Part shown: piece by piece, positions 36,842-46,775 of the stretch
How the letters are laid out: every line of letters begins with the position of its first letter
Numbering within the stretch: position 1 is the first letter of the stretch
Assembly: GCA_000004695.1 (NCBI GenBank)
Contig: CM000154.2
Location: 4,736,001 to 4,800,000, forward strand
Direction of reading: 5' to 3'
Length of the DNA stretch: 64,000 nt
Origin: Dictyostelium discoideum
Lineage: Eukaryota
Notes under the pieces: generated by a model
Told to the model about the DNA's origin: nothing
What the model saw: only the letters and a program-made list of their open reading frames with translations
Databases searched by the model: none
Made by a program: the position numbers and the translations under genes

Positions 36842-39800
36842 TTAATGATTGTTAATAATATCATTTAAAATCATTGATTCATTAATTTCCCAATCTTGAT
36901 GATTATATGAACCAATTGAAGTTAATAATTCTTTTGTGCTATTTGACATTTTTAACAAACTATTAATTGTAAAAGTTGTTAATAATAAATTTTGATTTTT
37001 GTGAATGTGGAATGTTGAATATCTTTTTGATGATTTTCCATTTGATTTTGAAACTAATTCAATCCATTCATCGAAATCTATTTCTTTACATTTAAAATTG
37101 TTTTCCAATACCCTATAAAATGATTTCATTTCCATTGAATTACCATTAAAATTATAAATTGAGATTGGTTTTGATTTATTTTGATTCCAACTGTTTTCAT
37201 TGAATATTAAATCAATTGTTGTTTTAGCTATGGTTGTGACTGGAGTTGAGAAAATCGATTTATGAATATTTGGATAATAACCAATCTCTTTTGAAGCTTT
37301 GATTAAAAGTGATATAAAATCATTTGAATGACCTATACCTGTTATTGGATTTGAGAATATATCTATAATTAAAATAGCAATGAAAAATGGTTATTAGAAT
37401 ATTATATACTAAATTTAATCGATTGAAATGTTAACAATAATAATAATATGCTACATACCAGGTGGTCTAATAATGATTGATGGTATACCTCTTGATTCAG
37501 CTGCATTTGTTATAAGTTTCTCTGAAATAACTTTAGATTGAATATATCCAATTGGTGTAGAATTAAAACTTGGAACTGAATTTGTTTCTTCAAAATCCTC
37601 TTCATCTTTAAAAGGATGATTAATGAATACTGCAAGTGATGAAAAATGAACTATTAATTTTTGTGAGCTATTATTTGAAACTGATAATTTTATAATTTGA
37701 TTAACACTGTTAACATTTACAGTTTTACTTTCTTCATAGTTTGATTTTAAATTTATATCTGCTGCTGAATTAATAATAATATCACATTCATTTGAAAGTT
37801 TTAAATAATCTTGTTCAGTTAAACCAAATTTGTCTTTTGAGATATCACCAATAATTGGAATGATTTTAATTAATTGATCTTCATTTATTTGATTATTATT
37901 ATTGTTACTATTATCACTGTTTGAATTACTACTATTTAATTTATCATTTGATATGTTACCTGTATGATTGATTATTTTTGTTTTTCTTTTTGGAGATTCT
38001 TTATTCATATCTATTAATTGATGTTTCTTTAAATTATTAATAATTACATCGATTGGATTTGTTAGTTTTGAATTATTTCTTATTAAACAATAAATTTTTG
38101 ATATATTATTCACTTTAATTAATTCAATTAATAAATATGCACCTAAGAATCCTGTTGAACCTGTTAAGAATATTGATTGACAATTATTATTATTATTATT
38201 ATTATTATTATTATTATTATTATTATTATTATTATTATTATTATTATTATTATTATTATTATTATTTAAAATATTTTTAATTGAATATGGTCTTGAAATG
38301 ATCGATTCATTTAATTTAGTTTCATTTTTAATAAACTCATCAAGTGATTGTTGTTCTTTTTTAATGTTATCATGATGATTGCTATTATTATTATTATTAT
38401 TATTATTATTTTTATTTTTATTATGGGCAGATTTAATAATTTCAATTGATTGATTGATTTTATTATTTTGTAATTGTTGAATTGTGATAATATTATGACC
38501 TAATTGATTATCGACAAAATTCTTTAATTGTACAATTACTAAACTATCCATACCATATTGTGAGAGTTGTAAATCTTCATTGATTTTGGATTCATCAATT
38601 GATAATATTTCACTGATTTTATTTAAAATTGTTGAACGAATAATTTCATTATTATTATCATCACCAGAGAAAGATTTGATTTGATTTGATTTTTTAACAA
38701 TATTAATTTCAAAATCAAATTTTGAATGATGTTGATTTGTTAAAGTTGATGGTAAAACTTCAAAATTGAAATCTGATAAACAATAGTTTGGATATTGATG
38801 TTGATTTTGAATGAATAGATCTAATGAACTAATAACGAGTTGAGGTGAGAATAGATTTGAAAGAGTACTCTTTAACATTGTTTCAATTGCATTATTACGT
38901 GATACGAAACCAGTTGATGATATGGCACCTAAATTAATGGCTAAAGATGGTAATCCAATTGAATGTCTATACTTTGATAATGAATCGATAACATTACATG
39001 CACTAACATAACAACATTGTTTATCTGATCCAAATATTGAAACTACTGATGATGCCATTATGAATTGTTTGATATTCCATGAACGATTAATCGATTGATT
39101 GTGAAGATTAATTGCTCCAATTGTTTTAGCACCATGTGTAATATTTAAACGATTCATATCTACTTTTTGAACATCACAAATATCATTCATAAATGCAAAA
39201 TGAATGATTGAATCAATATTTGTAATATTTTCATTTAACTCTAATTGATTCAATACTTGATTGACTTTAGTTGAATCTTCAATATCGATTTGATTGAAAT
39301 GGAATTTAATAATATTATCTTTTTTAAATTTAGTTTGATTGATTAATAATTCTAATTCCCATTTTAATTTTGATTTTGAAAGTATTATAATATTTTCAAT
39401 TGAATGGTTTGAATATTTAACCAAATATTTTAATATTTCTAAAACAATACCAGTTTGACCAGTGAGTAAAATATTTTTACCAATATTTAATTTTGAAATA
39501 TCATATGAATGTTTCATGATTTGATTGTTATTATTTTGATAAATATTATAAATTCTATTGAATTCATCTTGATTATGATTAACAATGATTTTACCAATAT
39601 GTTTTCTTTGATTTATATATTCAATTGCATCTTTAAATTGATTATTTGAATATTCAATGATTGGTACGCTTGGCTCTAATTTATTTGAATTTATCATTTT
39701 AATAATTTTCTTTATATAGCTTTTGATTAATTTACCAGGGAAATCTATGACCTCTACGTTAAAGTAACCCACATTAAATTTGTAATGATTATTTGTCATA

Positions 39801-45800: not shown

Positions 45801-46775
45801 CATCCGATGAAAATGTATGACATTTTCCTGTTGGACTTAACATATCTAATTGTGTGAATGATTTTGAAATGTATGGATCTATAAAATAAAATTTTTTATT
45901 TGATATTTAATATATAATTTTTTTACTTTTTTTTTTTTTTTTAATTAATCACATACTTAATATAAAATTAACACCACCAACAATTGAAACATTTGATTTA
46001 TTTGATTTAATTGAATTATATCCACAATTAATTGCATTTGATGAACTTGAACAAGCTGTATCAATTGTTAAATTTTCACCTCTATTTTTTTTAAAAAAAA
46101 AAGGGAAATGACAATTAACATATAATTATAGTTTTGTGATAAAAGTAAAGATAAATCAAAACTTACCTAAAATCAAATGAAAAACCAATTCTATTTGCAA
46201 TGGAATGAGTTGTTGAACCAAAAATATTATTTTGAGTTTCGAATGGTGATTTTTGAAGATCATTATAATCAATAGTACTACTACCGATAAATGTACTTGT
46301 ATTAGTCCCACGTAAACTAATTGGATCAATACCACTATCTTCTAATGCTTCCCATACACCTGTTTGTTGATTTTATTTTAAAAACATTATTAATAAATAA
46401 ATAAATAAATAAATAAATAAATAAATAAATAAATAAATAAATAAATAAATAAATACATTTTAATAATAATCTTTGTTGAGGATCGATTGAACTGACATTA
46501 TCATAACTTGGATTAATGGCAAAGAAGATTGGATCGAATTGTTTCCATTCATCAAGTGGAAGTAAACCAGCAAACTTTGAAACGACTTCACCATTTAAGT
46601 AATAATTATCAGACCATCTTTCAGATGTTGTAACGATTCCATCCAATCCATTCAATAATTCATTAAATAATTGATTTGGTTTCGAAATAGATTCTTTTAA
46701 ATTACCACTTGGAAATCTTAAACCAATACCGATCACTGCAACATCATCATCATTTTTATCAATATTTTCTGTCAT
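36842..46775 (-). CDS. Type I iterative polyketide synthase (copy A). Domain order KS-AT-DH-cMT-ER-KR-ACP-thioester reductase (R). Seven exons: 46775-46457, 46359-46167, 46081-45957, 45878-45420, 45341-45147, 45048-37459, 37362-36842. About 3133 aa.
   Basis: KS active site DTACSSS (exon 3), HGTGT, and GHTEG|ACSGVAS across the exon 4/5 junction. [88 protein letters not shown] domain [20 protein letters not shown]…IYCLIRN, continuing into the last exon after donor GTATGT (37458) and acceptor atAG (37364-63). All junction phases checked: 1, 2, 1, 1, 1, 1. Confidence 0.85.
42118..42236. repeat. (ATT)n/(AAT)n coding microsatellite inside PKS copy A, in-frame poly-Asn in the linker before the methyltransferase domain
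   Basis: Direct reading. The corresponding tract in copy B (55303-55488) is about 60 bp longer. Confidence 0.9.
46393..46455. repeat. (AAAT)n microsatellite in the first intron of PKS copy A. The copy-B equivalent is at 59688-59756.
   Basis: Direct reading of tandem aaat units. This is the intron between donor GTATTT and acceptor aacAG. Confidence 0.85.

What the first reader, a model, noticed from the sequence alone, without database searches (positions are those of the whole stretch)
36842..46775. PKS with C-terminal thioester-reductase (R) domain encoded by a separate last exon, and KS domain fragmented over five small exons
The domain order read directly from motifs is KS (DTACSSS, HGTGT, GHTEG) - AT (GHSLGE) - DH (HxxxDxxxxP) - C-methyltransferase ([10 protein letters not shown]) - ER - KR - ACP (GMDSL) - NAD-binding reductase ([14 protein letters not shown]…CLIRN). 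The reductase continues after an intron (donor at 37458, acceptor at 37364) into a 173-codon terminal exon. A terminal R domain implies reductive release giving an aldehyde or alcohol, rather than hydrolysis. The six 5' introns all interrupt the KS, while the remaining ~7.6 kb is a single exon. That pattern is consistent with 5'-biased intron retention. The paralog has ACP GTDSL instead of GMDSL and differs in the MT-proximal linker, which may indicate early functional divergence.
Basis: partly seen in the sequence, partly recalled or inferred. Interest (0 to 1): 0.6.

Follow-up and report, generated by a model that had tools for sequence, protein, structure and literature searches.

The report
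Known Dictyostelium polyketide synthase with reductase end

Summary
On the minus strand, 46775..36842 encodes a seven-exon gene. All six introns are GT..AG, 78-98 nt and 6-18% GC. The product is 3,133 aa with the order KS-AT-DH-cMT-ER-KR-ACP-R. Exon 6 alone matches Pfam NAD_binding_4 only to model position 205 of 258, exactly at the exon end. Adding exon 7 extends the match to 256 of 258. The spliced R region aligns without a gap across the junction to the solved MxaA reductase domain, and its Ser-Tyr-Lys triad and TGxTGFLG motif are intact. A second copy (60077..50202, 3,108 aa) has the same exon structure.

There are five KS introns, not six, and the motif is GHTEA, not GHTEG.

"Early functional divergence" is not supported. 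dN/dS is below 1 in every region. The KS and MT blocks are near-identical even at synonymous and intron sites, which indicates gene conversion.

The window is D. discoideum, because its TFIIB is identical to the AX4 protein. A 2025 paper already reports that 19 of the 40 D. discoideum PKSs end in a probable thioester reductase. The pair is probably pks38/pks39, which I did not verify. The product is unknown.

Verdict: already known, low interest.

The parts
36842..46775 (-). Copy A. A complete seven-exon PKS gene from ATG 46775 to the end of the TAA at 36842, giving 3,133 aa. Probably pks38 (not verified).
   Evidence: The model was assembled and translated. An independent annotation of the same locus in GCA_054883475.1 (L006, 99.7% identical DNA) also gives a 3133-residue product.
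45017..46748 (-). KS domain (residues 10-441), spread over exons 1-5 and the start of exon 6. It is interrupted by five introns: 46456-46360, 46166-46082, 45956-45879, 45419-45342 and 45146-45049. The catalytic residues are Cys181, His320 and His363.
   Evidence: Pfam ketoacyl-synt scores 208.6 bits and Ketoacyl-synt_C 95.8 bits. The alignment to the solved Pks16 KS (9nju, E 1.9e-126) has no gap at junction residues 107, 171, 213, 366 or 431.
43679..44644 (-). AT domain (residues 566-887), with GHSLGE Ser657.
   Evidence: Pfam Acyl_transf_1 scores 150.9 bits. The motif was located.
42560..43486 (-). DH domain (about residues 952-1260), with His979 in [10 protein letters not shown] and Asp1155 in DTCLH.
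   Evidence: Pfam PKS_DH_N scores 24.9 bits, below the cutoff of 27. The motifs were located. The region is covered by the alignment to Pks16, 9nju.
41531..41878 (-). C-methyltransferase core (residues 1488-1603), with SAM motif ILEAGGGTG.
   Evidence: Pfam Methyltransf_12 scores 49.2 bits against a cutoff of 30. It also matches the CurJ C-MT structure 5thy.
39581..40546 (-). ER domain (residues 1932-2253), with NADPH motif HSAAGGIG.
   Evidence: Pfam ADH_N scores 29.9 bits and ADH_zinc_N_2 37.0 bits.
38918..39469 (-). Catalytic KR domain (residues 2291-2474).
   Evidence: Pfam KR scores 80.4 bits.
38390..38662 (-). ACP (residues 2560-2650). The phosphopantetheine attachment site is Ser2599, in GMDSL.
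   Evidence: Pfam ACP_SdgA_C scores 111.2 bits and PP-binding 23.3 bits.
36845..38167 (-). Thioester-reductase (R/TR) domain, residues 2725-3133, split by intron 6 (37458-37363) at residue 2961. Features are TGSTGFLG at 2726-2733 and the triad Ser2900, Tyr2932 and Lys2936. A low-complexity insert lies at about residues 2778-2818.
   Evidence: NAD_binding_4 matches model positions 1-205 with exon 6 alone and 1-256 once exon 7 is spliced on. TIGR01746 scores 179 bits. The alignment to MxaA 4u7w is gap-free across the junction. The triad is invariant in 19 homologs.
36842..37362 (-). Exon 7 (521 nt). It encodes the end of the Rossmann part and the C-terminal subdomain of the R domain, followed by the stop codon.
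   Evidence: The frame is open with P = 4.5e-8. Exon 7 is 98.3% identical between the two copies, against 86.6% for intron 6. If the intron is retained, translation ends at RPPGM* in both copies.
50202..60077 (-). Copy B, the tandem paralog. Its seven exons are 60077-59759, 59645-59453, 59367-59243, 59161-58703, 58624-58430, 58321-50807 and 50722-50202. The product is 3,108 aa and 92.5% identical to copy A. Probably pks39 (not verified).
   Evidence: The model was assembled. It has the same Pfam domain set as copy A. All catalytic motifs are intact.
35734..47104 (.). One unit of the tandem duplication. Its partner is 49174-60382, at 91.9% DNA identity. The unit contains the PKS gene, both of its flanks, and the 5' fragment of a RING/TRAF-like gene.
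   Evidence: The duplication was mapped by blastn self-comparison.

Best explanation
This is one of a tandem pair of Dictyostelium discoideum type I iterative, highly reducing polyketide synthases of the Pks16/FAS-like family. It most likely corresponds to pks38, with pks39 as the upstream copy.

The single module (KS-AT-DH-cMT-ER-KR-ACP) builds a reduced, possibly methyl-branched acyl chain on Ser2599 of the ACP by repeated malonyl extension. The chain is not hydrolysed. Instead it is passed to the fused C-terminal thioester-reductase domain, a short-chain dehydrogenase fold with a TGxTGFLG NAD(P)H site and a Ser2900/Tyr2932/Lys2936 triad. That domain reduces the thioester and releases an aldehyde (two electrons) or a primary alcohol (a further two electrons).

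What is shown: the gene structure, the domain content, the intact catalytic motifs, and the continuity of the R domain across the last intron.

What is inferred: the release chemistry and the nature of the product, both by homology. The product itself is unknown.

The two copies evolve in concert. Gene conversion keeps the KS and MT blocks and both gene ends nearly identical, and both copies are under purifying selection.
For: - Gene model: it has canonical splice sites and is in frame, giving 3,133 aa. The same locus in another D. discoideum assembly is annotated with a 3133-residue product.
- Domains: Pfam finds KS, AT, MT, ER, KR, ACP and NAD_binding_4 above their cutoffs.
- Closest solved megasynthase: D. 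discoideum Pks16 (9nju) at 1016 bits. It aligns as far as the ACP and then ends.
- R domain identity: NAD_binding_4 scores 161 bits. The best NCBIfam model is TIGR01746, the thioester reductase domain. The best solved relatives are MxaA (4u7w, E 7e-28) and the S. coelicolor PKS TR (8v1x).
- Last splice junction: the Pfam profile reaches position 205 of 258 at the end of exon 6 and 256 of 258 after splicing. Alignments to MxaA, to 8v1x and to a bacterial homolog are gap-free across the junction.
- Catalytic residues: the triad is invariant in 19 sequences.
- Structure: the AlphaFold model of the 88%-identical paralog product P0001, which spans the same junction, best matches terminal R domains (TM 0.68, about 310-320 of 354 residues aligned).
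- Selection and conversion: dN/dS is 0.39 overall and 0.35-0.46 in R.
- Prior literature: 21 of the 40 DdPKSs carry an offloading enzyme downstream of the ACP. [quoted passage not shown]
Against: - No transcript or cDNA evidence could be obtained for any junction. No RNA-seq-derived protein matching the R region appeared, although transcript contigs for the neighbouring TFIIB gene exist.
- TIGR01746 scores 179 bits, below its curated cutoff of 213. The match is split into two stretches by a low-complexity insert.
- No TR domain from a Dictyostelium PKS has been assayed in any paper I found.
- Whether the released product is an aldehyde or an alcohol cannot be read from the sequence.
- The pks38/pks39 assignment rests on three things: synteny with AX4 TFIIB, the published position of pks39 on chromosome 5 (PMC10755179), and my unverified memory of the catalogued protein lengths.
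Confidence: 0.82

Rival explanations
1. The C-terminal domain has the R fold but does not act as a reductase. It could be a redox-inactive Dieckmann-cyclase type (R*), as in fungal PKS-NRPS tetramate synthetases, or a decayed domain. Release would then occur by cyclisation or through a trans-acting enzyme.
For: No biochemical data exist for any Dictyostelium TR domain. TIGR01746 scores below its cutoff. A roughly 40-residue low-complexity insert sits inside the Rossmann fold.
Against: The Ser-Tyr-Lys triad and the TGxTGFLG nucleotide-binding motif are intact and invariant. From my knowledge of the field, R* domains characteristically lose the catalytic Tyr. dN/dS in R is 0.35-0.46, so the domain is under constraint. 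The insert is predicted to be disordered and lies outside the core. There is no amino-acid-derived beta-ketoamide substrate here, since the protein has no NRPS module.
Confidence: 0.07
2. Exon 7 is not joined to exon 6 in vivo. The protein would end at RPPGM* with a truncated R domain, and the downstream ORF would be a relic or a separate gene.
For: No transcript evidence was obtainable. Exon 7 translated alone has no Pfam hit.
Against: The Pfam profile and three independent homolog alignments continue colinearly and without gaps across the junction. Exon 7's frame is open with P = 4.5e-8 and is 98.3% conserved between copies, against 86.6% for the intron. The same intron position and phase are found in paralogs C and D in L004, and even in the decayed copy in L001. 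Annotators of other assemblies splice it the same way.
Confidence: 0.03
3. The sequence differences between the two copies (GMDSL versus GTDSL in the ACP, the DH-MT linker, DH, ER) reflect adaptive functional divergence of a young duplicate.
For: Identity is lowest in the DH (88%), the ACP (86%) and the linkers (80-87%). dN/dS is highest in the KR-ACP linker (0.68) and the ACP (0.53).
Against: dN/dS is below 1 in every region. The high-identity blocks are also near-identical at synonymous sites (dS 0.007-0.010) and in the introns, which marks conversion and not constraint. In the gene core, A-B identity (91-95%) equals A-C, A-D, B-C and B-D identity (90-96%), so the core difference is old and not 'early'. 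All catalytic motifs are identical in both copies.
Confidence: 0.1

Closest known systems
The D. discoideum PKS family (40 DdPKSs), specifically the 19 members with a C-terminal thioester reductase described in the Pks16 cryo-EM paper (PMC12828403). The tandem pair here is probably pks38/pks39.
   Same: It comes from the same organism, since its TFIIB is identical to the AX4 protein. It has the same KS-AT-DH-MT-ER-KR-ACP body, with Pks16 (9nju) as the best solved match at 1016 bits. It has the same type of C-terminal offloading domain. It shows the same habit of chromosomally adjacent, highly homologous pairs.
   Different: Nothing in kind. Pks16 itself lacks the R domain and has an inactive MT. 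The product of this pair is unknown; products are reported only for Pks1, Pks5 and Pks16.
MxaA terminal reductase domain of the myxalamid PKS-NRPS (PDB 4u7w and 4w4t)
   Same: It is the best solved relative both by sequence (E 7e-28) and by fold (TM 0.68 for the paralog proxy). It shares the TGxTGFLG motif, the GYxQSK motif and the C-terminal subdomain, and it sits directly after a carrier domain.
   Different: It is bacterial and follows an NRPS module's PCP. Identity is only about 19-30%. It has no low-complexity insert. MxaA performs a four-electron reduction to the alcohol, and whether this enzyme does the same is unknown.
Thioester-reductase domain of the Streptomyces coelicolor type I PKS (PDB 8v1x), and the R domains of carboxylic acid reductases (5msp and others)
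   Same: They share the same fold and catalytic motifs and carry out reductive release from a phosphopantetheine thioester.
   Different: The sequence relationship is more distant (E 9e-19 and 2e-7). The CAR R domains act after an adenylation domain on free acids.
R domain of Cryptosporidium parvum CpFAS1 (PMC2995488)
   Same: It is a protist FAS/PKS-type megasynthase that ends in a reductase domain acting on long fatty acyl thioesters (from the abstract).
   Different: It is a multi-module, intronless 25-kb ORF. I did not compare it by sequence here.
Fatty acyl-CoA reductases (the 'male sterility' family, for example rice DPW, PDB 7eoz)
   Same: They share the Pfam NAD_binding_4 Rossmann domain.
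   Different: The match is much weaker (E 1.9e-5 against 7e-28 for MxaA). They are free-standing enzymes acting on acyl-CoA or acyl-ACP. No FAR-type C-terminal domain was detected in exon 7.

Membership tests
Type I iterative highly reducing PKS (FAS-like, Dictyostelium Pks family) | KS with a Cys-His-His catalytic triad | tested here: met
   Cys181 (DTACSSS), His320 (HGTGT) and His363 (GHTEA) are present. Pfam ketoacyl-synt scores 208.6 bits. The Pks16 KS aligns at E 1.9e-126.
Type I iterative highly reducing PKS (FAS-like, Dictyostelium Pks family) | AT with a GHSxG active serine | tested here: met
   GHSLGE with Ser657 is present. Pfam Acyl_transf_1 scores 150.9 bits.
Type I iterative highly reducing PKS (FAS-like, Dictyostelium Pks family) | A full reducing loop of DH, ER and KR | tested here: met
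   KR scores 80.4 bits, and ADH_N and ADH_zinc_N_2 are above their cutoffs. The DH motifs His979 and Asp1155 are present. The DH Pfam hit is only 24.9 bits against a cutoff of 27, so the DH rests on the motifs and on the Pks16 alignment.
Type I iterative highly reducing PKS (FAS-like, Dictyostelium Pks family) | ACP with a DSL phosphopantetheinylation serine | tested here: met
   The motif is GMDSL (Ser2599) in copy A and GTDSL (Ser2603) in copy B. Pfam ACP_SdgA_C scores 111 bits.
Type I iterative highly reducing PKS (FAS-like, Dictyostelium Pks family) | A single module used iteratively, with one copy of each domain | tested here: met
   There is one match per domain family over the 3,133 aa. 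Iterative use itself is an inference.
Type I iterative highly reducing PKS (FAS-like, Dictyostelium Pks family) | Makes a polyketide or fatty-acyl product | not testable with these tools
   No product is known for this pair. Only Pks1, Pks5 and Pks16 have assigned products (PMC12828403).
Terminal thioester reductase (R/TR) domain (Pfam NAD_binding_4, TIGR01746) | Positioned directly downstream of the carrier domain, at the C-terminus | tested here: met
   The ACP is at 2560-2650 and the R domain at 2725-3133, joined by a roughly 70-residue low-complexity linker.
Terminal thioester reductase (R/TR) domain (Pfam NAD_binding_4, TIGR01746) | Rossmann NAD(P)H motif TGxTGFLG | tested here: met
   TGSTGFLG lies at 2726-2733 in copy A and 2705-2712 in copy B. 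It aligns to the same motif in MxaA.
Terminal thioester reductase (R/TR) domain (Pfam NAD_binding_4, TIGR01746) | Ser/Thr-Tyr-Lys catalytic triad | tested here: met
   Ser2900, Tyr2932 and Lys2936 are invariant in the 19-sequence alignment A2.
Terminal thioester reductase (R/TR) domain (Pfam NAD_binding_4, TIGR01746) | C-terminal substrate-binding subdomain completing a roughly 400-residue R fold | tested here: met
   The sequence alignment to 4u7w and 8v1x runs to R-region residues 343-349 of 414. The model of paralog P0001 aligns to R-domain structures over about 310-320 columns at TM 0.68. The structural test used a proxy, not the window protein itself.
Terminal thioester reductase (R/TR) domain (Pfam NAD_binding_4, TIGR01746) | Score above the curated family cutoff | tested here: inconclusive
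   Pfam NAD_binding_4 scores 161-168 bits against a cutoff of 20.1, so that one is met. TIGR01746 scores 179.1 bits against a cutoff of 213.35, so that one is not met. Its match is split in two by the low-complexity insert.
Terminal thioester reductase (R/TR) domain (Pfam NAD_binding_4, TIGR01746) | NAD(P)H-dependent reductive release of the thioester | not testable with these tools
   This needs an enzyme assay. No assay of a Dictyostelium TR domain was found in the literature.
Redox-inactive R* (Dieckmann cyclase) domains | Loss of the catalytic Tyr of the SDR triad | tested here: not met
   Tyr2932 is retained and invariant. That loss of this Tyr defines R* domains comes from my knowledge of the literature and was not checked here.
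Fatty acyl-CoA reductase (FAR / male sterility) | A free-standing enzyme with a FAR-type C-terminal domain, closest to FAR sequences | tested here: not met
   The domain is fused to a PKS. Exon 7 has no Pfam hit. The FAR structure 7eoz matches at E 1.9e-5, against 7e-28 for MxaA.

The most novel reading that the evidence does not exclude
The only reading with any novelty concerns how the TR-terminated Dictyostelium PKS paralogs evolve, which appears to be by domain-scale mosaic gene conversion. In this pair the KS (with its introns), the MT block and both gene ends have been homogenised recently (dS at or below 0.01). The DH, ER, KR and ACP core is as diverged between the tandem neighbours as it is from paralogs at another locus. 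If conversion tracts follow domain boundaries across the family, this would be a natural 'domain-swapping' mechanism shaping product diversity in amoebae. A secondary point is that the R-domain intron is specific to this subfamily. It is present in relatives of 74% identity or more and absent from a 42%-identical paralog and from a stand-alone R gene.
Probability: 0.4. Interest if true: 0.3.

Novelty: already known. Interest (0 to 1): 0.12.

Why it matters
It matters little beyond confirmation. The gene belongs to a catalogued D. discoideum family, and the presence of C-terminal thioester reductases in about half of its members is already published. The work here validates the seven-exon model and shows that both copies are intact and under selection. 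It also corrects the idea of incipient functional divergence, because the pattern is concerted evolution. The open question is what these TR-terminated amoebal PKSs make, and whether they release aldehydes or alcohols. That question needs chemistry and genetics, not more sequence analysis.

Tried and rejected
1. Exact-sequence lookup of both spliced proteins. This result is void. My pasted sequences were 1 and 5 residues short in the poly-Asn runs (3132 and 3103 aa, against 3133 and 3108). For the same reason, the R-domain coordinates are low by one residue. They were corrected using DNA references.

2. Structure prediction of the window's own spliced R domain. I used the paralog product P0001 as a proxy instead.

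3. My first reading was that L001 lacks the R-domain intron. That was wrong. The tblastn HSP had read through the intron, which contributes 9 stops. L001 is a decayed pseudogene that keeps the intron.

4. Naming the pair through the protein collection. No AX4 PKS proteins appeared among the hits. The supplements of the Pks16 paper gave nothing on Pks38 or Pks39. The AX4 chromosome record that carries the published pks39 SNP coordinate is not in the collection, so the offset test could not be done.

5. Transcript evidence. Logan RNA-seq contigs exist for the neighbouring TFIIB, but none matched the R region.

6. A search for tailoring enzymes nearby. I found only TFIIB, RING/zf-TRAF/MATH genes, a mitochondrial carrier, a CCCH zinc-finger protein and unassigned ORFs. 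There is no sign of a biosynthetic gene cluster.

7. The idea that the core of one copy was overwritten from the specific paralogs in L004. Neither A nor B is consistently closer to C or D, so no donor can be named.

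
Full report
**Checking the observation**

The window is about 20% GC, which is typical of a dictyostelid. I read the minus strand from 47200 down to 36500 and assembled the exons. This gives a seven-exon gene: 46775-46457, 46359-46167, 46081-45957, 45878-45420, 45341-45147, 45048-37459 and 37362-36842.

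All six introns begin with GT and end with AG. They are 78-98 nt long and 6-18% GC. The 9,402-nt coding sequence is in frame and encodes 3,133 residues.

The open frames cannot be chance in DNA where about 9.4% of random codons are stops. The probability is 4.5e-8 for exon 7, with 0 of 20,000 shuffles open, and about 1e-109 for exon 6.

**Domain content**

Pfam finds the following above their gathering cutoffs:

| Domain | Pfam family | Bits |
|---|---|---|
| KS | ketoacyl-synt / Ketoacyl-synt_C | 208.6 / 95.8 |
| AT | Acyl_transf_1 | 151 |
| C-MT | Methyltransf_12 | 49 |
| ER | ADH_N, ADH_zinc_N_2 | 29.9, 37.0 |
| KR | KR | 80 |
| ACP | ACP_SdgA_C | 111 |
| R | NAD_binding_4 | 161 |

The dehydratase hit (PKS_DH_N, 24.9 bits) is just below its cutoff of 27. 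The catalytic His979 ([10 protein letters not shown]) and Asp1155 are present, and the region lies inside the alignment to the solved Pks16 structure.

'GHTEG' comes from reading through the exon 4 donor, and the spliced sequence is GHTEA. Also, five introns interrupt the KS, not six. The sixth intron is the one in R.

**Testing the splice junctions**

I had no transcripts, so I tested each junction by asking whether splicing restores colinearity with homologs.

- For the five KS junctions (residues 107, 171, 213, 366 and 431), the spliced N-terminus aligns to the solved D. discoideum Pks16 KS (9nju, E 1.9e-126) with no gap at any junction.
- For the R junction (residue 2961), exon 6 alone matches NAD_binding_4 over model positions 1-205 of 258 and stops exactly at the exon end (138 bits). 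With exon 7 attached, the match runs to 256 of 258 (161 bits).
- The spliced R region aligns without a gap across the junction to MxaA (4u7w) and to the S. coelicolor PKS TR (8v1x). It does the same with homologs ranging from 88% to 26% identity, including a bacterial thioester reductase.
- If intron 6 is retained, translation ends at RPPGM* in both copies.
- Exon 7 is 98.3% identical between the two copies, while intron 6 is only 86.6% identical.
- Finally, the same locus in another D. discoideum assembly (L006, 99.7-99.85% identical DNA) is annotated with a product of exactly 3133 residues.

**The R domain**

- Its best NCBIfam model is TIGR01746, the thioester reductase domain. The score is 179 bits, under the cutoff of 213, because a low-complexity insert splits the match.
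- Its best solved relatives are terminal reductase domains, not fatty acyl-CoA reductases (E 7e-28 for MxaA against 1.9e-5 for 7eoz).
- The TGSTGFLG nucleotide-binding motif is intact, and the triad Ser2900/Tyr2932/Lys2936 is invariant across 19 homologs. This argues against a redox-inactive R*-type domain.
This is the annotated product of an 88%-identical paralog that spans the same junction (pLDDT 75, pTM 0.75).
- The top fold matches of that model are MxaA, the S. coelicolor PKS TR, and NRPS and CAR R domains (TM about 0.68, with about 310-320 of 354 residues aligned). The unaligned N-terminal 40 residues are the disordered insert.

**The paralog and how the pair evolves**

Copy B (60077-50202) has the same seven exons and the same intron positions and phases. 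It encodes 3,108 aa that are 92.5% identical to copy A. It has the same Pfam domain set and identical catalytic motifs.

The duplicated unit is about 11.4 kb (35734-47104 and 49174-60382). It includes both flanks and a fragment of a RING/TRAF-like gene.

Identity between the copies is strongly uneven:

| Region | DNA identity A vs B | dS |
|---|---|---|
| Exons 1-5 with their introns | 99-100% (7 mismatches in 436 intron bases) | 0.007 |
| MT block | 99% | 0.010 |
| Gene core | 90-92% | 0.07-0.19 |
| Intron 6 | 86.6% | not applicable |

dN/dS is below 1 in every region and 0.39 overall.

I also made a four-way comparison with two paralogs at another locus (L004). In the core, A-B identity (91-95%) equals A-C, A-D, B-C and B-D identity (90-96%). 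At the ends, A and B are far closer to each other than to C or D.

The simplest reading is concerted evolution. Gene conversion has homogenised parts of an old duplicate pair, and both copies are under purifying selection. The Met/Thr difference lies two residues before the ACP serine, at a position that varies across the family.

**Intron conservation**

The five KS introns and the R intron are shared by paralogs C and D, and the R intron is also kept by a decayed 74%-identical pseudogene in D. cf. discoideum (L001). I first misread L001 as lacking the intron.

A 42%-identical D. citrinum paralog (L002) lacks the R intron. So does a stand-alone, single-exon R-like gene (L003).

The 5' clustering of introns is real. 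However, '5'-biased retention' is a description rather than a tested mechanism, and the R intron lies near the 3' end.

**Comparison with what is known**

The window is D. discoideum, because its TFIIB is identical to the AX4 protein XP_635486.1 / Q54FD6. The closest solved megasynthase is D. discoideum Pks16.

The Pks16 cryo-EM paper (PMC12828403) makes three relevant statements:
- Twenty-one of the 40 DdPKSs have an offloading enzyme after the ACP. [quoted passage not shown]
- Adjacent, highly homologous gene pairs are a known feature of the family.
- Products are known only for Pks1, Pks5 and Pks16.

pks39 is DDB_G0290943, near the end of chromosome 5 (PMC10755179). This is consistent with the position of the syntenic locus in L006. 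From memory, which I could not verify, pks38 and pks39 are catalogued at 3,133 and 3,108 aa. That would make copy A pks38 and copy B pks39.

No tailoring enzymes lie nearby.

**Verdict**

This is a highly reducing PKS whose terminal reductase is completed by a separate last exon, which implies reductive release. It is nonetheless a member of a catalogued family whose architecture is already published. The novelty class is 'already known' and the interest is low.

The only mildly new element is the domain-scale gene-conversion mosaic between the tandem copies.

Noticed in passing
window 35734-47104 vs 49174-60382; L004 900-21171: The identity between the tandem PKS copies is a mosaic. The KS with introns 1-5 and the MT block are 99-100% identical (dS at or below 0.01), while the gene core is 90-92% identical. 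The core is as diverged between A and B as either is from paralogs at another locus. This is the signature of gene conversion (concerted evolution).
   Followed up: yes
window 32535-33935 (-), 34426-34764 (-), 35962-36318 (-), 49331-49759 (-): There is a family of RING / zf-TRAF / MATH genes here. One copy is an intact 466-aa ORF, and there are several fragments. An N-terminal RING fragment lies just downstream of each PKS copy, inside the duplicated unit.
   Followed up: partly
window about 62550-62700 and 62827-63105 (-): A run of N (an assembly gap) lies next to a short ORF that looks like a retroelement integrase core (…GKEFKNKVFDQF…GMVERVNQEIKKL…). It had no Pfam hit at E 0.001 or better.
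   Followed up: partly
L003 10001-11326 (D. cf. discoideum, GCA_054859235.1): This is a stand-alone, single-exon, 441-aa thioester-reductase-like gene (P0007). It is 41% identical to the PKS R domain over 95% of its length and is not adjacent to any PKS. Close copies occur in D. citrinum (P0008 and P0010). What it acts on is unknown.
   Followed up: partly
L001 6853-12479 (D. cf. discoideum, GCA_054859205.1): This is a decayed copy of a PKS of this subfamily (74% identical). It has in-frame stops, frameshifts and large internal deletions, and it lies about 1.3 kb from a DDE transposase gene. It has been annotated as three separate small 'hypothetical proteins'.
   Followed up: partly
window 46456-46360 and 59758-59646 (intron 1); residues 1369-1402 of A vs about 1376-1435 of B: The two copies differ in the length of simple repeats. 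The (ATTT)n microsatellite that fills intron 1 gives 97 nt in one copy and 113 nt in the other. The poly-Asn tract in the DH-MT linker is 34 residues in A and about 60 in B. A 28-residue poly-Asn run before the R domain of A is nearly absent from B.
   Followed up: no
L007-L015 (Logan RNA-seq contigs): Transcript-sized contigs (about 1.1 kb) for the neighbouring TFIIB gene are present in several public D. discoideum runs. No transcript-derived protein matched the PKS R region. This suggests low expression of the PKS pair in those samples.
   Followed up: no
L002 15350-17212 (-) (D. citrinum): Downstream of the 42%-identical PKS paralog, on the opposite strand, there are further fragments of KS, MT and R-domain coding sequence. 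This looks like another partial PKS copy.
   Followed up: no
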